Shown: positions 2,738 to 15,480, numbered from the stretch's first letter. The stretch is DNA of 64,000 bases from a virus (IMGVR_UViG_2706796752_000001:1-64000), one strand, 5' to 3'. Numbers and translations are program-made. Notes: generated by a model not told the origin, from the sequence alone.

Positions 2738-2929
2738 TTACAAAATTCCTGTTGCTGCTATAAGTACCCAGATGAAAAAAATTACCAGACAAAAAATTAA
2801 AGCTGTAGCAATACAGATTAGAACACTTGTTCCGTCTGCTCGAATACCACCGTTTCTAACGTACTGTCCGAACCTATAGAGGTAATAACTACCTCCTCCG
2901 ATGATAAGTATAACCAACCATAGTCCCAT
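2738..2929 (-). CDS. Small membrane protein
   Basis: Two hydrophobic segments, RBS GGAGGG. Confidence 0.7.
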   Translation of the reverse strand: MGLWLVILIIGGGSYYLYRFGQYVRNGGIRADGTSVLICIATALIFCLVIFFIWVLIAATGIL

Positions 2930-2962
2930 AATATCTACCCCCTACCTATTTATAAGTATATT

Positions 2963-3166
2963 TTACCACATACTCCAAAACATTGCAAGTAATCCTGACA
3001 AACCAATTTCCATAATTGATACAAGTACTACCATAATAATGATATATACGACCTGTCCGTCTGTTGGAGGGTCTGGGTCCGTTATAACTTCCTCACACAT
3101 ATCCCAGATGACTTTAACACCCCACCCCATTACAATTAAGGTAGTAAGCATATATAATGTTATCAT
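2963..3166 (-). CDS. Small membrane protein
   Basis: Two hydrophobic segments; abuts neighbour. Confidence 0.7.
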   Translation of the reverse strand: MITLYMLTTLIVMGWGVKVIWDMCEEVITDPDPPTDGQVVYIIIMVVLVSIMEIGLSGLLAMFWSMW

Positions 3167-3382
3167 CTATATCACCCCCATAAAGTAACATACCGTACAC
3201 ACACCGTATAAGATTGTTAGAATGATAGTTACCATTGCGAATATAAAGTTCATCATCTCATCGAACGTACTTGGGTTATACCCTATCTGGTCTTTTACCT
3301 TCTGTGCTTTATTTATCTCATCATTAACAATGTACCATAATACTAAAAGTCCTATACCTAGTATAAGTAGAACAACACCCAT
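3167..3382 (-). CDS. Small membrane protein
   Basis: Two hydrophobic segments, RBS GGGGTG. Confidence 0.7.
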   Translation of the reverse strand: MGVVLLILGIGLLVLWYIVNDEINKAQKVKDQIGYNPSTFDEMMNFIFAMVTIILTILYGVCTVCYFMGVI

Positions 3383-3442
3383 TCACCCACCCCCTATCAT
3401 TTTCCAGAAAATTTTAAACGTTGGTTATGGGGTACTTCCATA

Positions 3443-3634
3443 TTATGGTAACTTAGGGATGACAGAGGAGAATATAATAATCGCTATTATGAGTCCGCCT
3501 ATGATACGGTAACCCATGGTCTCATCTGTCACGTTAAACATGAATTCTAATACTGCTAGTAGCATTTCACTGATAAGATAGAAGACTACTAATCCTACTA
3601 CCATACTACCTAGTACTGTAACGATTGCTAACAT
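3443..3634 (-). CDS. Small membrane protein
   Basis: RBS GAGGAGGAG; two hydrophobic segments. Confidence 0.7.
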   Translation of the reverse strand: MLAIVTVLGSMVVGLVVFYLISEMLLAVLEFMFNVTDETMGYRIIGGLIIAIIIFSSVIPKLP

Positions 3635-3652: not shown

Positions 3653-4129
3653 TTAGTTTTCTCTAGTGTACTTTATAGTGTATGTTCTAGAATATGTTCC
3701 ATCTCCATTAGCTATTGCTAGTCTGTATCCTTCTTTGTCAAATATACCTTGCATGTGTTCCGGTAACTGACGATTTGTATAATGACGGAATCCACGTTTA
3801 TCTCTCCCTACGATTCTATTAAAGTATCTACCTTCACCTGATACATGGCTCTGTTTCTTTGTGAAGAAGTATACTGTTACAGTTCGTTCTTCTACTTTGT
3901 TCGATTTACGATGTAACGCTAGTGGCAACAAGTCTCTAAAGAAGTTGTGAATGTAAATGGTGACTCGTTCTGTATGGAAGTTAGGGTCTAGGTCCCATAC
4001 TACAGGTTCACGGTAAATACTCTCCATTGTTACATTGATGCTGCTCATTTCGTGACGTAACACTAGCTTCTTATGCGGGTTACGTCTATTAATTTCTACC
4101 ATCTGTCTATTACGTGTATGTCTAGTCAT
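3653..4129 (-). CDS. Basic protein, RHxRxxQ N-terminal family
   Basis: Starts MTRHTRNRQM; RBS GGGGAG. Confidence 0.8.
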   Translation of the reverse strand: MTRHTRNRQMVEINRRNPHKKLVLRHEMSSINVTMESIYREPVVWDLDPNFHTERVTIYIHNFFRDLLPLALHRKSNKVEERTVTVYFFTKKQSHVSGEGRYFNRIVGRDKRGFRHYTNRQLPEHMQGIFDKEGYRLAIANGDGTYSRTYTIKYTREN

Positions 4130-4141
4130 ATAAATCTCCCC

Positions 4142-4423
4142 TTATTTGTATTTGCTCTTAACGAACCCATTATTACCGAAGAAAATTAAGTTCTCGATAT
4201 TCGTGTGAATATTAAATCTATCTTTCTCTTTATATCGTTTCTTCTTCCAGCGCTCAACTGATACTTCGCATCTAGGATTTCGTAACCAGAAGAAATCTTT
4301 ATCAAGATTACCAGAACCTTTTTCATACATGATACTAGTAGGCATTGACATGTTTATCTCATACGACCCATATAACTTCTTGTTAATATCTCTTAACTGT
4401 TTATTACGTGTATGTCTAGTCAT
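4142..4423 (-). CDS. Basic protein, RHxRxxQ family
   Basis: Starts MTRHTRNKQL; ATGA overlap with upstream gene. Confidence 0.8.
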   Translation of the reverse strand: MTRHTRNKQLRDINKKLYGSYEINMSMPTSIMYEKGSGNLDKDFFWLRNPRCEVSVERWKKKRYKEKDRFNIHTNIENLIFFGNNGFVKSKYK

Positions 4424-4629
4424 TCATATCTCTCCAATGCAGTTTTATGGAAGTTCTTGAATCCTTTTTCTGGTAGTACAAAGTTAGGTAGTCTCTCATA
4501 GTAGTTATACGTATGGTCTAGATTACCTTCCGCTATAGCTAGGTAGCATCTTACTGGTATACTTACATTCATTTTATAATGCGTTACCCCTATCTTATTT
4601 AACTGTCTGTTACGAGTATGTCTAGTCAT
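4420..4629 (-). CDS. Basic protein, RHxRxxQ family
   Basis: Start reassigned to 4629 (MTRHTRNRQL) after RBS GGAGG. Confidence 0.8.
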   Translation of the reverse strand: MTRHTRNRQLNKIGVTHYKMNVSIPVRCYLAIAEGNLDHTYNYYERLPNFVLPEKGFKNFHKTALERYE

Positions 4630-4745
4630 CTTTTGTTCCTCCATTTTATATATGAGCATATTAGGTACACAATGGAATTAATCCCTGCATACCCAATTAG
4701 AATAATAACTGCTAGTGACAGATAGAATTCGAATAGCTCTTGCAT
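4626..4745 (-). CDS. Very small membrane protein (39 aa, not in ORF track)
   Basis: MQELFEFYLSLAVIILIGYAGINSIVYLICSYIKWRNKR; fills the gap and overlaps both neighbours. Confidence 0.55.
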   Translation of the reverse strand: MQELFEFYLSLAVIILIGYAGINSIVYLICSYIKWRNKR

Positions 4746-5149
4746 TAGTAGTTCATCTTCCTATTTAGATTGCCTACAATCACACTAAGTAATAACAGGT
4801 CACTAGATGATAGATGGACACACTCGTATCGACTACCATCTTCAAATGCTATTACGTGATGCATAGAAGCTGCACAGTCTTGATTCTCAATGTATAACTC
4901 CGTATCTTCGTCTTCCATTACAATCTTAGGAGATTCATAACCATCTTCTCCTTGGTATGCTGCTTCTAACATTCTTATAAAACTCTCTACACGGTGTTTG
5001 TTTAATACTAGTTTGAACTTAGTTTCACAATCTGTATCCTCATACTTTACAACCATCTCAAACTCTGACTTAAGGTGAACTTTAACTAGCTCATCATGAA
5101 CACCTTGATTATTATGATGTTGACAATAGAATTTATGTTTACTGTACAT
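4745..5149 (-). CDS. Hypothetical protein, two-repeat PC4/PUR-like family
   Basis: Two beta-beta-beta-alpha-like repeats ending KLVLNKHRVESF and VHLSSSDLLLL. Confidence 0.7.
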   Translation of the reverse strand: MYSKHKFYCQHHNNQGVHDELVKVHLKSEFEMVVKYEDTDCETKFKLVLNKHRVESFIRMLEAAYQGEDGYESPKIVMEDEDTELYIENQDCAASMHHVIAFEDGSRYECVHLSSSDLLLLSVIVGNLNRKMNY

Positions 5150-5504
5150 TATTCCACCAGCTTTCTGTAATTACTTCCTCTACTTTAACTCTTCCGTTTG
5201 TTTGGTGCGAAACGTATACTCTTGTTTTCTCTGATGTACCTTTTCGTTCGAATGACACTTGTGCAAACGTATAGATGTAGAACGGATTAAACTTACCTAG
5301 TCCGAATGATTTCTGTTGACGATAGTTACCTTTATGGTGTACAGATTCTATTTCAAACTCATTTTCCCATCGGAAGGACTTGTCCAAGTTAAGTTGGATT
5401 AGGTTAAACTTTGCAATAGGTATGTTCTTAACTTTGCGGTCCATATACTTACCCCATCTACCATTAGTTGCTTTCTCCATCTGCTTGTTACGTGTGTGTC
5501 TCAT
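5139..5504 (-). CDS. Basic protein, RHxRxxQ family
   Basis: Starts MRHTRNKQM; RBS GGAGGGG. Confidence 0.8.
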   Translation of the reverse strand: MRHTRNKQMEKATNGRWGKYMDRKVKNIPIAKFNLIQLNLDKSFRWENEFEIESVHHKGNYRQQKSFGLGKFNPFYIYTFAQVSFERKGTSEKTRVYVSHQTNGRVKVEEVITESWWNNVQ

Positions 5505-5899
5505 TGTTTCCCCTCCTTTTGTTTATCTCTAAATCTCTGTACTGCTTCTCTCTGCTTTTGTTTACCATTACCTTCTTCCATGTACTTCTTATGGTAAACT
5601 TTAACTCTATCTTTATTGTTGTAATACCATTCTCGTCTAGAGGCATTCACTCGCTCTTTGTTTTCCCGTTTCCACTTCTCGGTCTTAGCGATAACGTGCT
5701 CTTTGTTGTTTTGATAGTATCGTTTACTTCTTTCTTTTTTCGCTTCCTCTGCACATAGTCTACATGTAAACTTTCTACCGTAAGACCCATCTCGGCGTAT
5801 TGTTCCTGTTTTCTCGAATGACTCAATATCTTTCACTACACCACACTTCTTACATTCTCGTACCTTAGCTGATGGGTCATACTTCAGTTGGTATGTCAT
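5501..5899 (-). CDS. Zn-ribbon plus basic helical repeat protein (resembles HNH/endonuclease VII N-terminus without the nuclease domain)
   Basis: CKKC...CRLC followed by YYxNNK repeats; start moved to 5899 after RBS GGGGGTG; own promoter at 5930-5958. Confidence 0.7.
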   Translation of the reverse strand: MTYQLKYDPSAKVRECKKCGVVKDIESFEKTGTIRRDGSYGRKFTCRLCAEEAKKERSKRYYQNNKEHVIAKTEKWKRENKERVNASRREWYYNNKDRVKVYHKKYMEEGNGKQKQREAVQRFRDKQKEGKQ

Positions 5900-5929
5900 G
5901 TAAACACCCCCCTTGTTTTGTATATTATT

Positions 5930-5958
5930 ATAGTACAACAGATTGATTGGAAAGTCAA
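5930..5958 (-). promoter_or_regulatory. sigma-A-type early promoter
   Basis: TTGACT-17-TACTAT. Confidence 0.7.
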
Positions 5959-6383
5959 CCCATTTTATTGAATTCTTCTAAAATAGATTTATAGACTTCT
6001 ATTAGTCCTTTATCATAGATGAACTTCTCATAAGCCGCTCCTACACTCCAGAGGTTTAGGCTGTGTTTCCCTAAATGCTTAATTTGGTCTACTGCATCGT
6101 TACACTTTAGATATGCGTCTATGTGAGCTGCAATGTCGTACTCTTCTATATCTAACTCTCGAAGATTATCAAACCTTCCTAGTATATGTTGCAGGACTGC
6201 TAGTTCTTTAACGAATATCTCTAGGAACGTAGACTCACTTCTTCCATTTGCCACGCATTCCTCTATAGCTTCTCCTAGCTGTCTCCCTCTTTCTACTAGG
6301 TTGAGCTCTCTAGCATCTACGATTCGTAATATTACACGGTTCTTTTCATCGACATCGTAATAACCTTGTTCTTCTGGATTCAT
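5955..6383 (-). CDS. Hypothetical protein
   Basis: RBS AAGGAGGAG, 142 aa. Confidence 0.75.
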   Translation of the reverse strand: MNPEEQGYYDVDEKNRVILRIVDARELNLVERGRQLGEAIEECVANGRSESTFLEIFVKELAVLQHILGRFDNLRELDIEEYDIAAHIDAYLKCNDAVDQIKHLGKHSLNLWSVGAAYEKFIYDKGLIEVYKSILEEFNKMG

Positions 6384-6395
6384 TATAACTCCTCC

Positions 6396-6542
6396 TTATC
6401 CTCTACTTACAAATACTTGCTTTTTACCACATCGCTTACATTTAGTTCTTACTGTTAACATTCCAAAGCTGTAGCTACTCCTCGTAATCTCTTTATCGTG
6501 GCTTCCTTTCTTGCATAACCATGCACCGATTCTTTTAAACAT
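6396..6542 (-). CDS. Small zinc-finger protein (DUF1660-like), not in ORF track
   Basis: MFKRIGAWLCKKGSH...KCKRCGKK, 48 aa, RBS AGGAGGG. Confidence 0.7.
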   Translation of the reverse strand: MFKRIGAWLCKKGSHDKEITRSSYSFGMLTVRTKCKRCGKKQVFVSRG

Positions 6543-6543
6543 G

Positions 6544-6714
6544 CTAGTCCCTCCTATTGTCTATCATTAAGTCATGATGAATCGTCTCTTCCATGCGATA
6601 GTTACATCTTTTACATACATGATGTCTAATTGTAAACCTCTTCATCACAACGCTACCCTTATGCTCCATTTTACATCCAAAGAATGTGCAAATTAATTGA
6701 TTAATGAACGACAC
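6544..6714 (-). CDS. Small zinc-finger protein (DUF1660-like), not in ORF track
   Basis: GTG start after AAAGGAG; LICTFFGC...VCKRCN, 56 aa. Confidence 0.65.
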   Translation of the reverse strand: MSFINQLICTFFGCKMEHKGSVVMKRFTIRHHVCKRCNYRMEETIHHDLMIDNRRD

Positions 6715-6940
6715 CAGAATTCACTCCTTTGTATGTGAAGAAATTAATATCGAACCAGTATACGTTCGCGAACTTACCTGTCATGTACTGTACATGTATA
6801 TAATCATCAAACACCTGATGTACTACTACGTCTAACATATCCATTGTACCTCCAGTGAATTTGTCTTGTACGCAGATATCATATGTTGCACCTACTTCGA
6901 ATTCATCTAGTATTAGCTTCTTAACATGTGTAGTCTTCAT
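6701..6940 (-). CDS. Hypothetical protein
   Basis: 79 aa, RBS AAGGAG. Confidence 0.7.
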   Translation of the reverse strand: MKTTHVKKLILDEFEVGATYDICVQDKFTGGTMDMLDVVVHQVFDDYIHVQYMTGKFANVYWFDINFFTYKGVNSGVVH

Positions 6941-7115
6941 AGCGTCTAAATCTCTCCTTTCTCTCTATGACTCTATATAACTCCCTAAGATGTTTCGCTC
7001 TGATTTCTATTAAGTGAGCCCTAACATCTTTGTCAGTACATAAATCCATTTGTTCTTTTACAGCAGCTATCTTATCAACTAACACTTCCTCTTTAATGTC
7101 TAGATAATCCTTCAT
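6921..7115 (-). CDS. Hypothetical helical protein
   Basis: 64 aa, ATGA overlap. Confidence 0.65.
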   Translation of the reverse strand: MKDYLDIKEEVLVDKIAAVKEQMDLCTDKDVRAHLIEIRAKHLRELYRVIERKERFRRYEDYTC

Positions 7116-7438
7116 ATTGTTGTACCTATTCTATATGACATAACTGAGCTTCCTTTCGGGTTCATATTGTTTTTTAGCAACTGTCCTCCTTTTCTAGACA
7201 CCCAAGAAATTACATTCTTATCTACAAGGTACTCTGTAATACCGTTAACCTCATCGTACACGAAGTTGTGTCGCTTTGTACGAATCCACTTAAATGTAAC
7301 ATCCAGTTCTCTACCAGTTAAGGCGTTTCTATATCTAGCTATAGTGAGGTTCTTGTCCTTCATAAAGAAATCGTGATTTAAACCTGTCTCCATTTCTGCT
7401 GCTAGACGTCTTTGTCTGTTACGTGTATGTCTTGTCAT
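7112..7438 (-). CDS. Basic protein, RHxRxxQ family
   Basis: Starts MTRHTRNRQR. Confidence 0.8.
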   Translation of the reverse strand: MTRHTRNRQRRLAAEMETGLNHDFFMKDKNLTIARYRNALTGRELDVTFKWIRTKRHNFVYDEVNGITEYLVDKNVISWVSRKGGQLLKNNMNPKGSSVMSYRIGTTI

Positions 7439-7439
7439 A

Positions 7440-7595
7440 CTACCACACCCACCCTAGTCGCTTATTTTGTTTGTATCGATTATACATGCTACATAACTCT
7501 GCTGTACTAACTTCCTCAAACCCTACTACGTACTCGTCACCAAGTTCTTTCATCTTCATATAGCAAAACTCAATCATCATTTTACGGATACTCAT
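7440..7595 (-). CDS. Hypothetical 51-aa protein, not in ORF track
   Basis: MSIRKMMIEFCYMKMKELGDEY...GWVW, RBS AGGAGGG. Confidence 0.6.
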   Translation of the reverse strand: MSIRKMMIEFCYMKMKELGDEYVVGFEEVSTAELCSMYNRYKQNKRLGWVW

Positions 7596-7605
7596 ATTAC
7601 CCCTC

Positions 7606-7977
7606 CTAGTATTCTAGTAATTCTGTTGCTTGTGCATGCGTCATAAATGCTACTGCACTTAGTTCGTGTCGTGGTGTGATTGCGATACCTAGTCGTTCTT
7701 TAGATGAGTGTATAACTGATACTGCTTTACTTCTGTCTTGTCTAGTTGCATAAAGTTCTGTTTCTAGTTTAACCTTGTTATCTAGTATTTGTGCGATGTT
7801 ATACTTCAATTTTAAGAATTGCCCTTCGTTCATCATAGCTCGTTGTACATACTGTATTTCTTTTGTTCTATCCTCGATTATTAATAATCCGTACATCAAC
7901 TTACCATTCTCTCTTTCTGTTGTCACGATTACTGTATCGCTATACTTACTGTCTCTAGTAGCTTCAATTGTTAACAT
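7606..7977 (-). CDS. Hypothetical protein, two-repeat PC4/PUR-like family
   Basis: RBS GAGGAGG; repeats end RAMMNEGQFLKL and AFMTHAQATEL. Confidence 0.7.
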   Translation of the reverse strand: MLTIEATRDSKYSDTVIVTTERENGKLMYGLLIIEDRTKEIQYVQRAMMNEGQFLKLKYNIAQILDNKVKLETELYATRQDRSKAVSVIHSSKERLGIAITPRHELSAVAFMTHAQATELLEY

Positions 7978-8135
7978 TATCGTTCCTCCTCTAGTATATT
8001 CACTTCGATATCTAAACTGTAATCCTCTTTAACTAACGAGAATGACGTATACTTTCCTGTCTTATGGTCGAATGCCATAAAGTCTAGTTTATCATCCATA
8101 TCCTTTATATAATTCTTTAACTCTCCTATAGTCAT
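7977..8135 (-). CDS. Hypothetical 52-aa protein, not in ORF track
   Basis: MTIGELKNYIKDMDDKL..., RBS GAGGGGG. Confidence 0.6.
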   Translation of the reverse strand: MTIGELKNYIKDMDDKLDFMAFDHKTGKYTSFSLVKEDYSLDIEVNILEEER

Positions 8136-8150
8136 TATAACACCCCTCTA

Positions 8151-8354
8151 TTAAATTGTAAAGCATAAAATTACTGCTGATATAATCCACACAATAAAAC
8201 CACCGACCGCGATATCGTTATCTTCAATTACGGTAGAACTCATACCTTGGAAGGCGTTCATTAGATACATGAATAAGAATGCTACCGTGCATGATATTGC
8301 GTACCATCCAAAGCATGCAAATACAACAAAGAATATCTGCCCTAATAGAATCAT
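8151..8354 (-). CDS. Small membrane protein
   Basis: Hydrophobic 67 aa. Confidence 0.65.
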   Translation of the reverse strand: MILLGQIFFVVFACFGWYAISCTVAFLFMYLMNAFQGMSSTVIEDNDIAVGGFIVWIISAVILCFTI

Positions 8355-8429
8355 TTAGAAATCACCAACTCATAACCGAACCAAGTAATAATGTATACAT
8401 CTTGTCCATTATAGAAGCGCGGTTTCCAA

Positions 8430-8828
8430 TTACGCCATTCCATTGTTATACGCCTCCTTGATAAAGTCGTACAGCTTATTCGTATCTGCTGTTGTTAAAC
8501 AAATACTCTCCGAGTTGTTATCGTCTGCTAACAGGATAGATATCGCGGGTTTACTCCGTACTTTTGTATCACGTACCCATAAGCAGTTATTGTTGTGATT
8601 ACCAAATCTCTTTTCCTCTGTCCCTACTAATGCTGCATGAAGTGCCACTCCTACTTCCATTCCAGTTAATAAAGGTAACTTAACTACTGTGTTTACTTTG
8701 TTTCGTTTATCCTCTATTTTAAATTTAAACCCATTACCTGTTTCTGTAACAGTTAAATAGTCATCTTGATTATCTGCGTAATCGTTGAACATGCATGAAA
8801 ATCTAATTTTCTTTTTAAGTTTAAACAT
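8430..8828 (-). CDS. Hypothetical protein, two-repeat PC4/PUR-like family
   Basis: RBS AGGAGGAG; C-terminal SICLTTADTNKL. Confidence 0.75.
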   Translation of the reverse strand: MFKLKKKIRFSCMFNDYADNQDDYLTVTETGNGFKFKIEDKRNKVNTVVKLPLLTGMEVGVALHAALVGTEEKRFGNHNNNCLWVRDTKVRSKPAISILLADDNNSESICLTTADTNKLYDFIKEAYNNGMA

Positions 8829-8874
8829 ATTACTCTCCTCCTAAAATATGGTTTATAAATTTCGTCTTATCGGT

Positions 8875-9282
8875 TTACGGGTACAGCTTCCCATCACGCA
8901 AAATCTTCTCTATTGTTTTTAATAGGTCCTCTGCATTACGTTGAGATAGATGGGCTGTTCCCATGTTTTCATCTTTTCCTTCTAATAGTACGATGATGTG
9001 TTGTCTATCATCTGTACAGTCTGCTCGTTCTATGTTAATGTATCCTTTTTCTTTCTCGTACTGGAACGCTTTCCAATCTCCTTCTACAACATCCCTAAGT
9101 CCTGTTACTATTTTGTGTATTTCTTTAACTTGGATATTGACTTTAACGTGTTCCGTGCTATCTTTATCTACGTGGACAAGAGATAGTTTGCCTTTCTTTG
9201 TTACACCTACAATTAAGAATTCATCACCATTGTTAAAGTCTGTGTTATGCTCACATGGGTACATCTTACGTGGACCAATCAT
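8875..9282 (-). CDS. Hypothetical protein, two-repeat PC4/PUR-like family
   Basis: Clear paralogue of 9279-9668 (KKGKL, KV.I, .HL motifs). Confidence 0.75.
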   Translation of the reverse strand: MIGPRKMYPCEHNTDFNNGDEFLIVGVTKKGKLSLVHVDKDSTEHVKVNIQVKEIHKIVTGLRDVVEGDWKAFQYEKEKGYINIERADCTDDRQHIIVLLEGKDENMGTAHLSQRNAEDLLKTIEKILRDGKLYP

Positions 9283-9668
9283 AATAACTCTCCTTCCATA
9301 CCGAAGTGTCGGATTTGCTCATAGACTTGTTCGAATTGTACCTTCTCTAGGTGAACCGATTCGAAGTCGTACTCTGATTCGATACCGAAACAGTAATGTG
9401 GCGTTCCTAGACAATTGATGAAATCTACATCAATACGCTTATCATCGTTCACATCTATTACATTGCATCGTCCATGCTCTAGTACATCTTCCATACCACT
9501 AAACAGCTCTTGTGCCTGTTTCTGTGTAATCTTAACTTTCTCTTTGTTGTTATGTTCCTTTTCCCCAATAGCGATAATCAGTTTGCCTTTCTTACTTACT
9601 TTAATTTTAAGAATATCATAGTTGTTAGTTCCTAACGTTGTGTGTGCACATTTCCATTGTTTTGTCAT
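9279..9668 (-). CDS. Hypothetical protein, two-repeat PC4/PUR-like family
   Basis: First gene after promoter 9697-9725; RBS AAGGGAGG. Confidence 0.8.
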   Translation of the reverse strand: MTKQWKCAHTTLGTNNYDILKIKVSKKGKLIIAIGEKEHNNKEKVKITQKQAQELFSGMEDVLEHGRCNVIDVNDDKRIDVDFINCLGTPHYCFGIESEYDFESVHLEKVQFEQVYEQIRHFGMEGELL

Positions 9669-9696
9669 TATTATTACCTCCCTTTAAGTTACTCTT

Positions 9697-9725
9697 AGTA
9701 TACCATTCTAGTTTTATAATTGCAA
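9697..9725 (-). promoter_or_regulatory. sigma-A-type early promoter
   Basis: TTGCAA-17-(TG)TATACT, directly after terminator at about 9737-9765. Confidence 0.8.
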
Positions 9726-9753
9726 CACTTTTCTACAAAAAAAAAAACTCCCG

Positions 9754-10032
9754 TTAGGAAGTTTTATGATTTTGATATAGTTGAATCATGTCGGCTGCAC
9801 TCATCCCTAAGAATTCCCACCACAGCCATAGTGTGGAGCCTAATAGTGCTGGGATGACGATTAATAGAATGCACCATCCAGCCCGACTAATTAGACTACG
9901 TTTCTCGCAAAGCTTCTGTATCGTCGTGTAAAGCCCCTTACAGAGCATGAACGCGCATACTATATACGCTAATCCTTGCGCCCACGTTAGAAAGAATAAC
10001 ATTACGGCATCTACTGTTGATAACTGACTCAC
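9754..10032 (-). CDS. Membrane protein
   Basis: GTG start at 10032 after AGGAGGAG; two hydrophobic segments. Confidence 0.65.
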   Translation of the reverse strand: MSQLSTVDAVMLFFLTWAQGLAYIVCAFMLCKGLYTTIQKLCEKRSLISRAGWCILLIVIPALLGSTLWLWWEFLGMSAADMIQLYQNHKTS

Positions 10033-10223
10033 TTTATATCTCCTCCTAGAATAAATATTAGTATCATTAATACTAGAAACATAGACCAGCACGATATGAT
10101 TAGACCAAAACCTACCGCAGCTATAGCGGATGTCTGGGACAACTTATCACTTTTAAACAAGCATCCCAGAACAACCATCACCACACCTACGATGATTAGT
10201 AGAGTAATAGCTACCGTAATCAA
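10029..10223 (-). CDS. Small membrane protein
   Basis: Two hydrophobic segments. Confidence 0.65.
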   Translation of the reverse strand: MITVAITLLIIVGVVMVVLGCLFKSDKLSQTSAIAAVGFGLIISCWSMFLVLMILIFILGGDIK

Positions 10224-10588
10224 AATATATCCTCTCCGGTCTTACAATCTAGCATCTCTACTTTATGTGCATCTGGTTTCGGTTTGTTGAAGAAGAAAAC
10301 ACGTGTGTCCGTTCTAAAATATACCTCCCCGAATAGATACGTAGACTTAGGAGTTCGTAGGACGTTTCCTAGCTTGTCCATCTTGTATCGTTTTGTATTT
10401 CTGATACGGTAATTCGGCTTACGTACTTCTTTATGAGTTGTTTGCACGTATGGCATTTCCACATACGATTCATCCATATCCATGAAGAACACACTCTCGA
10501 CATTGTGTCGAATCTCGATAGTTCCTCCGCAAGTAGCCATAATAGAGTGAATATTACGTAACTGTCTATTTCTTGAGTGTCTTGGCAC
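10220..10588 (-). CDS. Basic protein, RHxRxxQ family
   Basis: GTG start, MPRHSRNRQL; RBS AGGAGGAG. Confidence 0.8.
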   Translation of the reverse strand: MPRHSRNRQLRNIHSIMATCGGTIEIRHNVESVFFMDMDESYVEMPYVQTTHKEVRKPNYRIRNTKRYKMDKLGNVLRTPKSTYLFGEVYFRTDTRVFFFNKPKPDAHKVEMLDCKTGEDIF

Positions 10589-11030
10589 GTAACATCTCCT
10601 CCTGTCGAACAGCTATGATTCTAACCGCATCGATTACCTCTTGGAACTTTCTAAGTTTGAAGAATGCCACATTGTGAATATCTACTGGGTCTAGTGTCGC
10701 CATACCGAACATACTTTTATCTTCTAGCATCCAAGTTGATACGCCTTCTAGATAATTTGATGAGTAGTACTCTCTAGTAATAGTCATTGTCGATGCACGG
10801 TGAGCGTACTCGTTTAGTTTCTTTTCTAAGTTGTATAGAAGTTTATGAGATTCTGCCACATCTAGTACCGCTGTTTGTTTTCTGTTATTACCTGTTTTAT
10901 CCTCTGTTTCATACTCTCTAATCGTTAACTTAAACTTACCTTTATCTGTTAGTCGTAGGTGCATGGTTGCGAAAATATTCTCACTATCACTATTAAAATC
11001 GAAACTCTTAATCATTTCTTTCTCCCCCAT
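10566..11030 (-). CDS. Hypothetical protein, two-repeat PC4/PUR-like family
   Basis: DKGKFKLTIRE...TAVLDVAESHKL and AFFKLRKFQEV. Confidence 0.7.
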   Translation of the reverse strand: MGEKEMIKSFDFNSDSENIFATMHLRLTDKGKFKLTIREYETEDKTGNNRKQTAVLDVAESHKLLYNLEKKLNEYAHRASTMTITREYYSSNYLEGVSTWMLEDKSMFGMATLDPVDIHNVAFFKLRKFQEVIDAVRIIAVRQEEMLRAKTLKK

Positions 11031-11227
11031 CTAATCGCTAATTTGAATATGAAGAGTTCTTTTCTTTGTTTGTTATACTCGATGTAATGATACCTCTTCA
11101 AATCTATGATTTTAGTATACCACAGTGTTTCTGCTAATGCAAACAGTAATCTATATCTTTTTGTATCGAAGAAGAGACATTTAATAGTCTCTCCCTCGTC
11201 ATCATGGTTATATCTAGTAATATTCAT
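11012..11227 (-). CDS. Hypothetical protein
   Basis: 71 aa, RBS GGAG. Confidence 0.65.
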   Translation of the reverse strand: MNITRYNHDDEGETIKCLFFDTKRYRLLFALAETLWYTKIIDLKRYHYIEYNKQRKELFIFKLAIRWGRKK

Positions 11228-11228
11228 G

Positions 11229-11585
11229 TTATTGCTCCAGATAATGATTAATGAATGATACTAGTAAATCTTTGTCTGCTGGAGTGAATGTTACGCCTAG
11301 TGCTGCTCTTTCTAGTGTTAACATATGCTGTTCAAATGAACGTAGGTTGCACACATCTAGTTCTTCTCTTTCACTGATTTGAGGTAATTTTACATAGTTA
11401 CCGATTGACTTAGTAGTTCTACCTTCTAAGATATCTACTACTCGTTGCAGCTGCTTGTTATTTAGGATTACCGTTAGCTCATCGTCCTCTTCTGGTCCAT
11501 CCACAAACTTAAACTCAATTCCTGTTAGTGCTAGGTCAACCCTCAAGTATGAATCATCGTAATCTACATCGCGAATAATAAACAT
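11229..11585 (-). CDS. Hypothetical protein, two-repeat PC4/PUR-like family
   Basis: TVILNNKQLQRV and GVTFTPADKDLL. Confidence 0.75.
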   Translation of the reverse strand: MFIIRDVDYDDSYLRVDLALTGIEFKFVDGPEEDDELTVILNNKQLQRVVDILEGRTTKSIGNYVKLPQISEREELDVCNLRSFEQHMLTLERAALGVTFTPADKDLLVSFINHYLEQ

Positions 11586-11586
11586 A

Positions 11587-12030
11587 TTAGTTTCCTCCTT
11601 CTAAAAGTTCTGCTAATTCGATTAACTGCATTGTTAAATCCTCTGCCTTATCGACTGTCATAAACATTACCGCGCATGTTGCGTTATTAGGGTTTACACC
11701 TACCCCAATTTCACCACCACTAGCCCAAACAGATAATGACGCTCTACTATTCTTCTTAACAAATCTCTCTTTTACAGAGATAGCGCCACGTACTTGCGTA
11801 TCGTCGTCTAGTTTCTCCCTAAACTTTTCTGTTGTTTTTGTTAACTTATAGATAAACTTTTCTAACTGTTTGTGATTCAACTTAGTGCTCTTTTCATAAG
11901 GATGCATATTACCAATATCCTCGATTACAGAAAACGTTACTCGTTCACTGTTATGATAATACTCGATATTTAGCTTGTCCTTATCCGCGCCATGCACACC
12001 ATTAGAAACAATTGATATTAACTTATCCAT
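11587..12030 (-). CDS. Hypothetical protein, two-repeat PC4/PUR-like family
   Basis: STKLNHKQLEKF and MFMTVDKAEDL. Confidence 0.75.
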   Translation of the reverse strand: MDKLISIVSNGVHGADKDKLNIEYYHNSERVTFSVIEDIGNMHPYEKSTKLNHKQLEKFIYKLTKTTEKFREKLDDDTQVRGAISVKERFVKKNSRASLSVWASGGEIGVGVNPNNATCAVMFMTVDKAEDLTMQLIELAELLEGGN

Positions 12031-12041
12031 TATAAATCCTC

Positions 12042-12479
12042 CTATTGTCTGTATCTTCTTTTTAATAATTCATCTGCTTTCGTATCGATTGCGTTAACTG
12101 CGGCTTGTGCATCTTTTCTCGTAATCGATAACGTCACTATTTTAGCTACACTGTCAACGTCCTCAACTACACTTACCATGATTGTATCTCCTGTCATCGA
12201 TACGTGTGTCTTAAACTTAACTTGGCTACCATTATACGAATTTATGAAATCGAATGTATTTCTATTCATAATATCTTCGCTAACTTTGCCGAATGAAATA
12301 TGCTCTAGTAGTCTTACAAATCTAGTTGTATATTCATTAGTAAATTTGAATTTAAATGTAATTTTATCATCATGTACACTCTGTTCTCGACCGATAACTG
12401 TTAATTTTATATTACCTTTTTTAGTTAACTTACCTTCGATGAACTCGTCTTCTAATGTCGTATCTATAATTTTAAACAT
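12042..12479 (-). CDS. Hypothetical protein, two-repeat PC4/PUR-like family
   Basis: KKGNIKLTV...KFTNEYTTRF and LSITRKDAQAA. Confidence 0.75.
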   Translation of the reverse strand: MFKIIDTTLEDEFIEGKLTKKGNIKLTVIGREQSVHDDKITFKFKFTNEYTTRFVRLLEHISFGKVSEDIMNRNTFDFINSYNGSQVKFKTHVSMTGDTIMVSVVEDVDSVAKIVTLSITRKDAQAAVNAIDTKADELLKRRYRQ

Positions 12480-12873
12480 GAAGTGTATCCTCCTCCAGAG
12501 AAATCAACTTGTCATCAATCTCTTTGACAATACTCTCGATATGATGGTGCTGAACCGTGAGAACTTCCCAATCACCCTGTCTACTACCATCCATAGTACC
12601 TACTACGAATCCAAGGTCTACATACGAAATCTCAACTTCTAAGAACTTGGTTTTCTTTTCTATAATAATAGACGTACCATCTTCGATATCGCTCTCATCC
12701 GCGTTTAGAAAGGCAGTAAGCTTGTCCGATAGCTTTTTAAGTTTCTTATATCCTAGTTTAATAGAATACTGCCCGTCCGTATTATTATCACTAACCTTAA
12801 ACTTAAGCCTATCTCCTGCATCTGTAATTGTTAACGTACCTTCATTGTTTTCGTTATCTACGATTTGTAACAT
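12472..12873 (-). CDS. Hypothetical protein, two-repeat PC4/PUR-like family
   Basis: First gene after promoter 12896-12924; SIKLGYKKLKKL and LTVQHHHIESI. Confidence 0.75.
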   Translation of the reverse strand: MLQIVDNENNEGTLTITDAGDRLKFKVSDNNTDGQYSIKLGYKKLKKLSDKLTAFLNADESDIEDGTSIIIEKKTKFLEVEISYVDLGFVVGTMDGSRQGDWEVLTVQHHHIESIVKEIDDKLISLEEDTLHV

Positions 12874-12895
12874 ATTATCTCCTCCTTATAGTTAT

Positions 12896-12924
12896 ATATT
12901 ACACTACTTATCTTTAATTGTCAA
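12896..12924 (-). promoter_or_regulatory. sigma-A-type early promoter
   Basis: TTGACA-17-TAATAT. Confidence 0.8.
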
Positions 12925-13270
12925 TGGCTATTTTCCATTTCATACCGATAAATTCACCAACAAGTTTAACTGTCTTTTGGCTCTCTTCCCATGTGAACGC
13001 GTATCTATCATCGCACACGATGTTCTGGTATCCAGCGTACTCGCAAACTAGTACATCATCTTCCTCAGCAATCTTGATAGCGTCGAAGAACTCTAGGAAA
13101 GGTCTCTCTAGTAATCTCACTTTACTTAGTTCAAATAACCCTTCTTCTTTAGTATGCGGAAACCTAATTGATACATGGCCTCTATACGCGTTACCGGTAG
13201 CCACTCCAATAGTACCTTCGTATTTCATACCCGAATCAATAAGGAATACTCTGTCGTGCTCTCTAATCAT
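12914..13270 (-). CDS. Hypothetical protein (SH3-like N-terminus)
   Basis: 118 aa, RBS GGAGG. Confidence 0.7.
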   Translation of the reverse strand: MIREHDRVFLIDSGMKYEGTIGVATGNAYRGHVSIRFPHTKEEGLFELSKVRLLERPFLEFFDAIKIAEEDDVLVCEYAGYQNIVCDDRYAFTWEESQKTVKLVGEFIGMKWKIAIDN

Positions 13271-13461
13271 CGTCCTAACCTCCGTACCTTTATTATAATG
13301 TTATGCATGTACTCTACTTCTAACATCTCAACTACATAAGGCTGCTTCTGGAGTTGTACTACACAACCTTGGTAAAGTGTTCCGAATGACATTAGCTCCT
13401 CGTGAAAATAGTAACCTACTAATCCGTTCTTATCGACAACTTTAATCTTTTCTCTAGACAT
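13267..13461 (-). CDS. Hypothetical protein
   Basis: 64 aa, RBS AAGGAG. Confidence 0.65.
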   Translation of the reverse strand: MSREKIKVVDKNGLVGYYFHEELMSFGTLYQGCVVQLQKQPYVVEMLEVEYMHNIIIKVRRLGR

Positions 13462-13678
13462 AGATAAACTCCTTCTTTGCTTGTTCTTTTGTCAACACTT
13501 TAAATTCATCATTGTTCTTAGGGAAGCAGAACAGCCTGTCCCATATCAACTCCTTCATGTAATCCATACGACCAGAACCATAAGGTCTCCCGTTTAGTAC
13601 TAGTACGTAATACTCATCATCCACAGGTGATGTTAATTTTGGCTCCATTCGTTTCGGTCTTTCCTTTGTCGCTAACAT
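13454..13678 (-). CDS. Hypothetical protein
   Basis: 74 aa, RBS GGAGTG. Confidence 0.65.
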   Translation of the reverse strand: MLATKERPKRMEPKLTSPVDDEYYVLVLNGRPYGSGRMDYMKELIWDRLFCFPKNNDEFKVLTKEQAKKEFIYV

Positions 13679-13895
13679 CTGTTATCACTCCATCCTTATC
13701 TATTGTGAATCTACCGCAAACATACTTTCTAGCATTCTGTTTTCTAACTAAAACTAGATTACCTTCCATAAAGTACGGGTCCGAAGTTTGTCCGTTTAGG
13801 AATCTTTTATGACACCAATCCACATCTGATGCTGTTCCTCCGTACTTCCTTACTGTAACACCGTTGTTATAAAATGTCAAGGAATGTTTTGCCAT
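13617..13895 (-). CDS. Hypothetical protein
   Basis: 92 aa, RBS AAGGTGG; 62-nt overlap with downstream gene. Confidence 0.6.
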   Translation of the reverse strand: MAKHSLTFYNNGVTVRKYGGTASDVDWCHKRFLNGQTSDPYFMEGNLVLVRKQNARKYVCGRFTIDKDGVITDVSDKGKTETNGAKINITCG

Positions 13896-14176
13896 TAATA
13901 ATCCACCTTTTCTATTGTTCTAGGTCTATGTTCCGTCCAACCTCCATTAGGAGTCCACGTCTCTTTCGTTTCCGAGTCAAACACCATAATGTTATAGTCT
14001 TGTAAGAATAAATCGAAATCTTGCAATGTCTCCATATCTGGTTCTTTTAGCAGTCGTTCCACATCTATCCAATGTTCAGACGTAAACACAATGTCACTTA
14101 AGTCTCCTTTTGGGTAGTACTCTACCGTGTGGAACACCCAGTATCTGTTAAATAAATCAATCTCTAAAAATTCCAT
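13895..14176 (-). CDS. Hypothetical acidic protein
   Basis: First gene after promoter 14201-14229; RBS AAGGAGGAG. Confidence 0.75.
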   Translation of the reverse strand: MEFLEIDLFNRYWVFHTVEYYPKGDLSDIVFTSEHWIDVERLLKEPDMETLQDFDLFLQDYNIMVFDSETKETWTPNGGWTEHRPRTIEKVDY

Positions 14177-14200
14177 GTTGTATCTCCTCCTTATGATTAA

Positions 14201-14229
14201 ATAATAGCATAATATTCCATAGATTACAA
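14201..14229 (-). promoter_or_regulatory. sigma-A-type early promoter
   Basis: TTGTAA-17-(TG)TATTAT. Confidence 0.75.
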
Positions 14230-14252
14230 GAGAAAATAAAAAAACTTAGAAA

Positions 14253-14501
14253 TTAATCTAAGTTTCTCTTTAATAAAAATTCGCACCCTAGTGTTTTATA
14301 TGTGTATCGTCTTTCCCATTCCTCTAGTCTGAACCACTTAATTTCTGTTATCTTGTCTCCACATCTAGGACAATGTGATTCTATAGAGAATAGTACTTCT
14401 ACTTCATCCTTCACATAACCTCTAGATACTCCTAAAGGCGTTGGCTTCCACGGTAACACTTCCCCTCGTTTATGACCGAACCACTTACACCATTTATTCA
14501 T
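14253..14501 (-). CDS. Small zinc-finger protein (DUF1660-like)
   Basis: WCKWFGHK...HCPRCG. Confidence 0.7.
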   Translation of the reverse strand: MNKWCKWFGHKRGEVLPWKPTPLGVSRGYVKDEVEVLFSIESHCPRCGDKITEIKWFRLEEWERRYTYKTLGCEFLLKRNLD

Positions 14502-14668
14502 CGTATCATCCCCATATTTATTAGTAGACTAATAACGTTCGTAGCTGCTAAAGCTAGCATCATAATCTTAGATGTAGTTTCTAAGTAATCGTATTCTGCC
14601 CATAGTACGAACAAGCAAGCAATAATCGCTAGAATATTAAGTCCGCAAACTATACCTACAGCACTCAT
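14498..14668 (-). CDS. Small membrane protein, not in ORF track
   Basis: MSAVGIVCGLNILAIIACLFVLW..., RBS GAGGAGG, ATGA overlaps. Confidence 0.6.
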   Translation of the reverse strand: MSAVGIVCGLNILAIIACLFVLWAEYDYLETTSKIMMLALAATNVISLLINMGMIR

Positions 14669-15141
14669 TTTACATCCTCCTCAAACATGATGGTTTCATC
14701 TAGTCGAATCACAAATGATTTAGTGAACTCGTAGTTGAAGAATTTTAGTGTCTTGTTATCATCCTCTAATAACTGTTCAATGCTAGACTCATACTCATGA
14801 TACATAGATAGCGTATCTCCGTTCTTCATATGAATTAACACATATTTAGATTTGTGTTTACGAGCCTCCTTTTTGCTTAGAAGCTCTACAGTAATTCTAT
14901 CATGGTCCGTGTCGTAATCCATAGGATATCTTGAATCCCATTCTCGCGAATTCTTCTCTCCTAGTGTCTTAGAATCGAAGAAGAACGATTTAACTTTTGG
15001 TTCTCCTTCCTTCTTGATAGGGTTATCCACATGAACTACTATGACATCGTCGTCAATGTTAACAACTTTACCATCTACATAAGTTGCTCCAGTGTATCTT
15101 TTATAGAACCTAATTACCGCTTTATCGTGAACCTTAAACAT
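14665..15141 (-). CDS. Hypothetical protein
   Basis: 158 aa, RBS GGAG. Confidence 0.7.
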   Translation of the reverse strand: MFKVHDKAVIRFYKRYTGATYVDGKVVNIDDDVIVVHVDNPIKKEGEPKVKSFFFDSKTLGEKNSREWDSRYPMDYDTDHDRITVELLSKKEARKHKSKYVLIHMKNGDTLSMYHEYESSIEQLLEDDNKTLKFFNYEFTKSFVIRLDETIMFEEDVK

Positions 15142-15325
15142 TATCTCCAGCTCCTTTTGGTAGAATTACATATTGTTCCCAAAATAGGTATAGGTGATAC
15201 GCTAGTAGACCGAACATCGCCAATCTGTACTGATACGGCGTGTCTATAAAACTAAACGTACAATATAGAACAGTTACTAAAATCATTCCCACCTTCATTT
15301 TCATTGCTGTGTTATACTCAATCAT
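15134..15325 (-). CDS. Small membrane protein
   Basis: 63 aa hydrophobic. Confidence 0.6.
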   Translation of the reverse strand: MIEYNTAMKMKVGMILVTVLYCTFSFIDTPYQYRLAMFGLLAYHLYLFWEQYVILPKGAGDNV

Positions 15326-15480
15326 GGTCTCACCTTCTTGTTTGATTTTACTAGAATGCCAATGTTCTTAAATACAAATACATTTTCTTCAATCGTAGGT
15401 GTTCGCAACATAATGCTGTTGATTGTTCCTTGCTTAATTGTACATTTACCTAGTTGTCTATATCGTGCATGTCTTGTCAT
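15322..15480 (-). CDS. 52-aa basic protein, RHxRxxQ family (not in ORF track)
   Basis: MTRHARYRQLGKCTIKQG...KKVRP; RBS AAGGGTGG; ATGA overlap downstream. Confidence 0.7.
   Translation of the reverse strand: MTRHARYRQLGKCTIKQGTINSIMLRTPTIEENVFVFKNIGILVKSNKKVRP

What the first reader, a model, noticed from the sequence alone, without database searches (positions are those of the whole stretch)
3653..15480. Seven dispersed proteins share an N-terminal tag M(T/P)RH(T/S/A)R(N/Y)(R/K)Q on otherwise divergent bodies
Seen: MTRHTRNRQM (4129), MTRHTRNKQL (4423), MTRHTRNRQL (4629), MRHTRNKQM (5504), MTRHTRNRQR (7438), MPRHSRNRQL (10588) and MTRHARYRQL (15480, a 52-aa ORF missing from the track). Each has a plausible RBS. 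The DNA differs at synonymous positions (CAT/CAC, ACA/ACT, AAT/AAC), suggesting selection on the peptide. The bodies (52-158 aa) are basic and barely alignable, apart from a weak [L/M]D..[F/Y] motif (NLDKDF, NLDHTY, NLDKSF, DLDPNF, DMDESY). Inference: a modular addressing peptide (capsid loading for injection, or docking onto one host target such as the ribosome, RNAP or a protease) carrying variable payloads. Alternatively it is a roughly 27-bp recombination handle for shuffling accessory genes.
Basis: partly seen in the sequence, partly recalled or inferred. Interest (0 to 1): 0.8.

Follow-up and report, generated by a model that had tools for sequence, protein, structure and literature searches.

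The report
Paralogous basic phage proteins, invariant N-terminus
The seven "tagged" genes are diverged copies of one small, very basic protein family found only in phages of the Bacillus cereus group; its arginine-rich first nine residues are far more tightly conserved than the rest and are probably a binding element, not a portable address label on unrelated cargo.

Summary
Exactly seven ORFs in the 158-kb genome begin M(T/P)RH(T/S/A)R(N/Y)(R/K)Q. All are on the minus strand at the stated starts, each behind an RBS, with 0 matches in shuffles.

- The bodies are homologous, not unrelated payloads. All seven hit PHROG 1208. With the tag removed, they still link by profile searches (z 5.6 to 11 over shuffled controls).
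- They share a module of about 60 residues: the tag, then N-h-x-[IMV], then [LIM]-D-x-[ST]-[FY]-x-W-x-R. A variable beta-meander follows.
- Selection acts on the peptide. dN/dS is 0.05 in the tag against 0.21 elsewhere, and synonymous divergence in the tag is near normal.
- All seven proteins have pI 9.6-11.1; their neighbours have a median of 5.85.
- The family has 57 clusters in 1.84 billion proteins and is always N-terminal. Every named member comes from a B. cereus-group myophage (4-7 copies) or siphophage prophage (single copy where examined).
- It is absent from Bastillevirinae of B. subtilis and B. pumilus and from SPO1.
- No known fold or family matches.

Most likely the tag and an aromatic/basic strand bind a polyanionic ligand (RNA or ssDNA), but this is inferred. 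The tag DNA has also served as a crossover site: in Zuko and DIGNKC one array unit is missing, with the junction inside the tag. Interest is moderate.

The parts
3653..4129 (-). Paralogue A, 158 aa, PHROG 3864. Tag at 4103-4129; LDPNFHTER block at 3965-3991. It is a deletion variant of the 188-195-aa orthologues in other phages.
   Evidence: (tagless A vs rest of family z=8.8)
4142..4423 (-). Paralogue B, 93 aa, PHROG 1208. Tag at 4397-4423; LDKDFFWLR at 4280-4306. Its ATG overlaps the stop codon of C (ATGA).
   Evidence: (tagless E=6e-20)
4420..4629 (-). Paralogue C, 69 aa, PHROG 1208. The real start is 4629, behind GGAGGA, not the upstream ATG at 4659. Tag at 4603-4629; LDHTYNYYE at 4495-4521. 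This unit is missing in Zuko and DIGNKC, with the junction inside the tag.
   Evidence: (tagless E=4e-9)
5139..5504 (-). Paralogue D, 121 aa, PHROG 2487. Tag MRHTRNKQ (no residue-2 Thr) at 5481-5504; LDKSFRWEN at 5361-5387.
7112..7438 (-). Paralogue E, 108 aa, PHROG 1208. Tag at 7412-7438; LDVTFKWIR at 7280-7306. AF2 predicts helix 3-18, two short helices, then a four-stranded beta-meander at 50-103.
   Evidence: (tagless E=1e-23)
10220..10588 (-). Paralogue F, 122 aa, GTG start, PHROG 5511. Tag (M)PRHSRNRQ at 10562-10588; MDESY at 10451-10477. It is the most divergent copy; its body links to D over 48 columns.
   Evidence: (F-D z=5.6)
15322..15480 (-). Paralogue G, 52 aa, PHROG 1208. Tag MTRHARYRQ at 15454-15480. 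It ends just before the LD..F.W block that its 88-89-aa relatives in BigBertha-like phages carry. It is under purifying selection (pN/pS 0.10).
   Evidence: (tagless E=5e-8)

Best explanation
The seven ORFs are paralogues of one family of small (52-189 aa), strongly basic proteins specific to phages and prophages of the Bacillus cereus group. PHROGs splits the family into 1208, 2487, 3864 and 5511. The 'tag' is not a portable label. It is the most constrained segment of a shared N-terminal module of about 60 residues: M-(T)-R-H-T-R-N-[RK]-Q-[LM]-x-K, then N-h-x-[IMV], then [LIM]-D-x-[ST]-[FY]-x-W-x-R. That module runs into a beta-meander whose loops, inserts and length differ between paralogues. 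The family grew by tandem duplication, divergence and recombination between copies. Mechanism (inferred, not shown): the Arg/His-rich N-terminal helix, together with the aromatic/basic face of the first strand (F-x-W-x-R) and a later N-x-[IV]-x-[FWY] strand, forms a binding surface for a conserved polyanionic ligand. That ligand is most likely RNA or single-stranded DNA, or possibly a nucleotide, in the infected B. cereus-group cell. The variable remainder would tune specificity or output. Because the 27-nt tag is kept nearly identical by protein-level selection, it also acts incidentally as a crossover site that deletes or swaps array units. My confidence is about 0.9 for 'one paralogous family with a functionally critical N-terminus' and about 0.35-0.4 for 'nucleic-acid or polyanion binding'; the figure given for the whole statement is 0.45.
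For: Family:
- All seven hit PHROG 1208 over 52-106 residues.
- Tagless B, C, E and G still hit it (5e-8 to 1e-23), and B and E also hit 2487.
- Tagless profile-profile scores against column-shuffled nulls: A vs rest z=8.8, H-type vs rest 8.7, A-H 11.1, F-D 5.6, D-H 5.0.
- Conserved blocks are seen across 14 subgroups.
- There are exactly seven copies in the genome and 4-7 copies in five related myophages.

Peptide-level selection:
- Pooled dN/dS is 0.05 in the tag against 0.21 and 0.22 elsewhere, with pS 0.43 against 0.54-0.62.
- The codon table shows free synonymous variation.

Positional constraint:
- In a profile search of 1.84 billion representatives, 56 true family clusters (of 57 hits; P0045, a 444-aa repeat protein, is a false positive) start the match within the first five residues (residue 1 or 2 in nearly all). 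There is no fused or longer form.

Binding-type chemistry:
- All seven have pI 9.6-11.1 and net charge +5 to +12. The other 44 genes of the block have a median pI of 5.85, and only 3 of them reach 9.5.
- AF2 of E places the tag at the start of helix 3-18 (pLDDT 63-66). The F-x-W-x-R block lies at the start of strand 1 of a confident beta-sheet (pLDDT 85-91).

Host restriction:
- Every named cluster among the 30 looked up is from a B. cereus-group bacterium or one of its phages.
- There are 0 hits at E<=1 in phiNIT1, Grass, phiAGATE and SPO1, against 7 in the Nigalana control.
- Siphophage prophages carry a single copy among small genes after the replication module.

Recombination by-product.
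Against: - No experiment or annotated homologue bears on function. Pfam, NCBIfam, PDB sequence, Foldseek/PDB, VIA (best Z 4.6), BFVD and the ESM Atlas gave nothing.
- The N-terminal 40 residues of the only usable model have modest confidence. I could not inspect coordinates, so I cannot tell whether the tag is exposed or packs against the invariant Asp of the LD block.
- The model of A was unusable (pLDDT 46).
- The tag has only 3-4 basic residues in 9, fewer than classic arginine-rich motifs.
- High pI also fits binding to an acidic protein or a membrane surface.
- Host restriction could reflect a closed gene pool rather than a host-specific target.
- F links to the family without its tag only through D.
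Confidence: 0.45

Rival explanations
1. Protein-docking arsenal. The nonapeptide docks all paralogues onto one host protein or machine of the B. cereus group, such as RNA polymerase, the ribosome, a protease or a defence protein. The diversified bodies act as alternative inhibitors or decoys, for example as anti-defence factors in an arms race.
For: Extreme peptide-level conservation against fast-evolving bodies. Host-restricted distribution that crosses phage families. Multi-copy, variable copy number and cassette exchange in the accessory early block of lytic phages. Strictly N-terminal position.
Against: No partner is identifiable. No gene co-occurs consistently with the family in both prophage and myophage contexts. 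The uniformly high pI and the aromatic/basic strand motif fit a nucleic acid at least as well. The bodies share a conserved core rather than being free to vary.
Confidence: 0.2
2. Degron or modification site. The N-terminal peptide is recognised by a host protease/adaptor or modifying enzyme, for example Clp recognition or arginine phosphorylation by McsB. This would give all paralogues the same timed turnover or activation.
For: Strictly N-terminal position and invariant Arg, His, Arg and Gln. These are presumably early genes that should be switched off later; that is inferred from their position in the leftward block next to nucleotide-metabolism genes.
Against: No match to any defined bacterial N-terminal degron motif that I know of. 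The distance to the N-terminus varies (M-T-R-H versus M-R-H), so the mature N-terminal residue differs. The 52-aa G keeps the tag plus 40 conserved residues under strong constraint (pN/pS 0.10), which suggests the N-terminal part is the active unit and not just a disposal signal.
Confidence: 0.1
3. Capsid-targeting or injection signal, as for the T4 internal proteins. The tag loads the proteins into proheads for co-injection.
For: Formal resemblance to the T4 capsid targeting sequence, a conserved peptide of about 10 aa on diverse small basic proteins (PMC3012670). The proteins are small and basic.
Against: The bodies are homologous, unlike the T4 internal proteins. The family occurs in siphophage prophages whose head module (HK97-type capsid, S78 protease) is unrelated to that of Herelleviridae, so a scaffold receptor would not be shared. 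No conserved cleavage motif follows the tag: positions 10-14 are [LM]-x-K-h-x. The genes lie in the leftward accessory block beside nucleotide-metabolism genes, far from the head genes.
Confidence: 0.07
4. The 27-nt tag is conserved at the DNA level as a recombination handle, or by gene conversion, for shuffling accessory genes. The peptide itself is irrelevant.
For: In Zuko (L017) and DIGNKC (L012) the upstream region of C runs straight into the body of B. In Zuko the crossover lies inside the first ~14 nt of the tag; in DIGNKC it lies in or near the tag. SalinJah and W.Ph. carry a different body (B2) in the B slot. Belinda's B is a B/B2 chimera joined at the LD..F|KW block.
Against: Synonymous divergence inside the tag (pS 0.43) is close to that of the rest of the genes (0.54-0.62), while non-synonymous divergence is 5-8 times lower. 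Arg6 uses five codons from both codon families. Paralogues within one genome do not share synonymous choices. Prophages carry a single copy where examined and still keep the peptide.
Confidence: 0.03

Closest known systems
T4 internal proteins (IPI, IPII, IPIII and relatives) with the N-terminal capsid targeting sequence
   Same: A conserved N-terminal peptide of about 10 residues shared by several small, basic, rapidly diversifying accessory proteins of a large lytic phage. The shared 5' sequence can act as a recombination site (PMC3012670; the recombination point for T-even IP loci is from my own knowledge).
   Different: Here the bodies are homologous to each other. The family also occurs singly in unrelated temperate siphophages. 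No protease site follows the tag, and virion location is untested. Distribution follows the host group, not the capsid machinery.
Arginine-rich-motif RNA-binding peptides (lambda/P22 N, HIV Rev)
   Same: A short Arg/Thr/Asn/Gln-rich, helix-prone segment at the extreme N-terminus of a small basic phage protein. T-R-x-x-R-N-R resembles ARM composition (my own knowledge; helix prediction).
   Different: Only 3-4 basic residues in 9. The tag is followed by a folded beta-sheet domain instead of a disordered Nus-binding tail. No cognate hairpin has been identified and there is no sequence homology.
Uncharacterised PHROG families 1208, 2487, 3864 and 5511
   Same: The seven proteins are members of these families.
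   Different: PHROGs treats them as four separate families of unknown function. This work links them into one superfamily with a defined motif set, a host range and a copy-number pattern.

Membership tests
PHROG 1208/2487/3864/5511 superfamily (function unknown) | Significant profile match extending well beyond the first 10 residues | tested here: met
   all seven hit PHROG 1208 over 52-106 residues, and each also hits its own PHROG at 1e-18 to 1e-80.
PHROG 1208/2487/3864/5511 superfamily (function unknown) | Homology persists after removal of the tag | tested here: met
   B, C, E and G hit 1208 and D hits 2487 without the tag; tagless A vs rest z=8.8 and F vs D z=5.6 over column-shuffled nulls. 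F vs the whole family is not significant on its own.
T4-type capsid-targeting-sequence internal proteins | Conserved N-terminal peptide of about 10 aa shared by several proteins of one phage | tested here: met
T4-type capsid-targeting-sequence internal proteins | Bodies unrelated to each other (only the tag is shared) | tested here: not met
   shared blocks run through about 60 residues plus a common strand motif.
T4-type capsid-targeting-sequence internal proteins | Prohead-protease cleavage site directly after the tag | tested here: inconclusive
   positions 10-14 are [LM]-x-K-h-x, with no conserved Glu as in the T4 [LI]-x-E site. The specificity of the Herelleviridae protease was not tested.
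T4-type capsid-targeting-sequence internal proteins | Proteins present inside the virion | not testable with these tools
   Needs virion proteomics.
Lambda N-type arginine-rich-motif antiterminators | Arg-rich helix-forming N-terminal segment | tested here: inconclusive
   helix 3-18 predicted at pLDDT 63-66. Only R3, R6, R/K8 (plus H4) are basic.
Lambda N-type arginine-rich-motif antiterminators | Remainder of the protein intrinsically disordered | tested here: not met
   residues 50-103 of E form a confident four-stranded beta-sheet (pLDDT 85-91).
Lambda N-type arginine-rich-motif antiterminators | Cognate RNA hairpin (boxB-like) in early transcripts | not tested
   No search for conserved hairpins was made.
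Twin-arginine (Tat) signal peptides | [ST]-R-R-x-F-L-K followed by a hydrophobic h-region | tested here: not met
   there is no RR pair, and residues 10-30 are polar or charged.

The most novel reading that the evidence does not exclude
The nonapeptide is a dedicated docking element for one B. cereus-group-specific RNA or protein. The 4-7 paralogues per myophage would then be a diversified arsenal, for example of anti-defence or host-takeover effectors, all delivered to the same site. The 52-aa G would be a minimal, tag-only competitor or regulator. That would be a host-directed analogue of the T4 capsid-targeting system and a new, portable targeting peptide for Bacillus.
Probability: 0.15. 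Interest if true: 0.7.

Novelty: new member of a known kind. Interest (0 to 1): 0.4.

Why it matters
Large lytic Bacillus phages devote tens of kilobases to small early genes of unknown function. This work collapses four PHROGs into one superfamily with a precise motif signature. It shows that the invariant N-terminus is held by protein-level selection, and that the family follows the host group (B. cereus, B. thuringiensis, B. anthracis phages) across unrelated phage types.

That yields a sharply defined experiment. Four point mutations (R3, H4, R6, Q9) and a pull-down or gel shift would identify what may be a host-specific target of phage takeover or counter-defence.

It is also a clear small example of a selected peptide motif doubling as a crossover site for gene-array turnover.

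Tried and rejected
- Pfam and NCBIfam on all seven proteins: no family. Pfam on six neighbouring genes: none.
- PDB sequence profile search: best E 0.55.
- Foldseek against PDB: no hit at E<=0.001. VIA wide search: best Z 4.6, generic beta-meanders including PUR/PC4 repeats at Z 3.5-3.8, which is within noise. BFVD: only family members.
- ESM Atlas: no feature hits. Its own model of P0064 is too poor (pLDDT 0.45) for the structural rows to mean anything.
- AF2 of A: pLDDT 46, unusable for fold search.
- The sigma-70 promoter and terminator scan of the block showed no enrichment over shuffles, so it said nothing about operon structure.
- Tag DNA scans of 185,579 species genomes gave 0 and 14 hits. 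All 14 are chance, with none followed by the family's blocks. Two are the Fis C-terminal helix of Moraxella.
- Literature: no paper contains the motif string, and searches on Bastillevirinae paralogues, virion proteomics and named relatives found nothing on this family.
- Search for a conserved partner gene shared between prophage neighbourhoods and this genome: none.
- Tat signal, ribbon-helix-helix strand, clamp-binding motif and HTH_8/Fis likeness were considered from sequence alone. I dropped them because the defining patterns are absent.


Full report
**What is there**

The window is the left 64 kb of a 158,100-bp Bacillus phage of the genus Wphvirus (Herelleviridae, Bastillevirinae). It is 96% identical to phage Phireball over 3-16 kb. 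On the minus strand, a dense block of small genes runs from about 20 kb down to 2.7 kb.

Seven ORFs in that block begin with M(T/P)RH(T/S/A)R(N/Y)(R/K)Q:
- A: 3653-4129
- B: 4142-4423
- C: 4420-4629
- D: 5139-5504
- E: 7112-7438
- F: 10220-10588 (GTG start)
- G: 15322-15480

A six-frame scan of the whole genome finds the peptide exactly seven times, always at a start codon, and never in 100 shuffled genomes. Each start has an RBS. C, B and A are tandem, and B's ATG overlaps C's stop codon.

**One family, not a tag on unrelated bodies**

- Pfam and NCBIfam find nothing.
- All seven proteins match PHROG 1208 over 52-106 residues. Each also matches its own PHROG (1208, 2487, 3864 or 5511), all of unknown function.
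- With the first 10-11 residues cut off, B, C, E and G still hit 1208 (5e-8 to 1e-23), D still hits 2487, and B and E also hit 2487.
- I collected 56 distinct tag-bearing proteins from relatives and the hits of a profile search. I then compared tagless subfamily profiles by hhalign against column-shuffled nulls:
  - A vs the rest of the family: score 29.5 against 10.5 +/- 2.2 (z 8.8)
  - H-type vs the rest: z 8.7
  - A vs H: z 11.1
  - D vs H: z 5.0
  - F vs D: z 5.6 over 48 columns of the C-terminal body
  - F vs the whole family: not significant on its own

Alignments across 14 subgroups show these conserved blocks:
- M-T-R-H-T-R-N-[RK]-Q-[LM]-x-K
- N-h-x-[IMV], about 20 residues later
- [LIM]-D-x-[ST]-[FY]-x-W-x-R
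- a variable insert
- N-x-[IV]-x-[FWY]
- a turn and a final strand

G (52 aa) stops just before it, whereas its 88-89-aa relatives in BigBertha-like phages carry it.

**Selection**

Among the seven paralogues, identity is 77% in residues 1-10 and 18% elsewhere. I pooled pairwise comparisons between orthologues in different phages:

| Region | pS | pN | dN/dS |
|---|---|---|---|
| Tag (codons 2-10) | 0.43 | 0.032 | 0.05 |
| Module | 0.54 | 0.17 | 0.21 |
| Tail | 0.62 | 0.24 | 0.22 |

Arg6 uses five codons from both codon families, and Gln9 is CAA:CAG 32:25. So the peptide is what is conserved, not the DNA or mRNA. All seven genes, including the 52-aa G (pN/pS 0.10), behave as real genes. The pairs are not phylogenetically independent, so these ratios are approximate.

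**Distribution**

- A profile of the N-terminal module was searched against 1.84 billion representative proteins. It found 57 clusters, one of which (P0045, a 444-aa repeat protein) is a false positive. The true members are 52-189 aa.
- The match begins within the first five residues in every true member, and at residue 1 or 2 in nearly all. No fused or longer form exists.
- Of 30 clusters looked up, every named one comes from the B. cereus group. These include phages of Wphvirus, Bequatrovirus and Bastillevirus, and genomes of B. cereus, thuringiensis, wiedmannii, tropicus and pseudomycoides.
- Related myophages carry 4-7 copies.
- In the bacterial genomes the gene is single-copy, of the form MRHTRNRQ...LDPTFKWHR. 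It lies inside siphophage prophages, among small genes between the replication module and the HNH/terminase genes.
- Bastillevirinae that infect B. subtilis (phiNIT1, Grass) or B. pumilus (phiAGATE), and SPO1, have no match even at E<=1. The Nigalana control gives seven.
- Tag-pattern scans of one genome per prokaryotic species returned only chance hits.

The family therefore follows the host group, not phage phylogeny or head type.

**Structure and chemistry**

- AF2 of E with an 86-sequence alignment gave mean pLDDT 74.9. It predicts helix 3-18 (the tag starts it; pLDDT 63-66), two short helices, then a four-stranded beta-meander at 50-103 (pLDDT 85-91).
- F-x-W-x-R lies at the start of strand 1. 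By strand geometry, F, W and R share one face (inference).
- No solved or predicted viral structure outside the family resembles it.
- The model of A was unusable.
- All seven proteins have pI 9.6-11.1 and net charge +5 to +12. The 44 other genes of the block have a median pI of 5.85.

**Mechanism**

What is shown: a single paralogous family, an N-terminus under exceptional peptide-level constraint, a strict N-terminal position, strong basicity and host restriction.

What is inferred: the Arg/His-rich helix plus an aromatic/basic sheet face bind a polyanion, most likely RNA or ssDNA.

This resembles how arginine-rich motifs and aromatic beta-sheet platforms work (my own knowledge). There is no homology to them, and the lambda-N membership test fails on the folded body.

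Rivals and my estimates:
- docking onto one host protein, with the bodies as a diversified arsenal (0.2)
- a degron or modification site (0.1)
- capsid targeting as in T4 (0.07). This is disfavoured because the bodies are homologous, the family occurs in phages with unrelated head modules, and no cleavage motif follows the tag (PMC3012670).

**Recombination**

In Zuko (L017) and DIGNKC (L012), the sequence upstream of C continues directly into the body of B. In Zuko the switch lies within the first ~14 nt of the tag, where C and B are identical; in DIGNKC it lies in or near the tag. This is a precise loss (or gain) of one 206-bp unit. SalinJah and W.Ph. carry a different body (B2) in the B slot. 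Belinda's B is a B/B2 chimera joined at the LD..F|KW block.

**Verdict**

This is a real, clearly non-random feature. It is best read as an uncharacterised, host-restricted paralogous family with a hyper-conserved N-terminal binding element. It is new as a described superfamily, but it is of an ordinary kind: multi-copy small early proteins of a large phage. Interest is moderate.

Noticed in passing
window 5501-5938 (-): A 145-aa basic ORF with CxxC pairs overlaps the start of paralogue D. One search lists an 'endonuclease' feature under the D match in Phireball, which may be its counterpart. Pfam gives no hit at E<=0.01. In two prophages (L068, L069) a NUMOD4/HNH_3 endonuclease gene also lies just downstream of the family gene.
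   Followed up: partly
window 4745-12873 (-): A second paralogue family (about ten genes of 118-154 aa, flagged by the scan as PC4/PUR/Whirly-like) is interleaved with the tagged family. One member (10566-11030) overlaps the start of F by 23 nt. No consistent pairing with the tagged genes was seen.
   Followed up: no
window 15322-15480 (-); L029:1495-1758, L028:1492-1758, L010:12571-12837: G is a stable 52-aa short form (pN/pS 0.10). It ends just before the LD..F.W block that the 88-89-aa versions in BigBertha-like phages retain. It may be a tag-only competitor or regulator.
   Followed up: partly
window 3653-4129 (-) vs L012:1948-2532, L014:4784-5350, L009:1179-1742: The window's A (158 aa) lacks an internal segment of about 30-40 residues that the 188-195-aa orthologues of DIGNKC, SalinJah, W.Ph. 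and a metagenomic relative carry.
   Followed up: partly
window 2738-3634 (-): Four consecutive ORFs of 63-71 aa with strongly hydrophobic sequences (small membrane proteins) lie directly downstream of the C-B-A array.
   Followed up: no
L061:5043-5066, L064:4098-4121: The only in-frame coding matches to the tag DNA pattern in bacterial species genomes are in the C-terminal helix-turn-helix of Moraxella Fis (..MRHTRNNQSKAAQMLG..). I treat this as a chance resemblance, not homology.
   Followed up: partly
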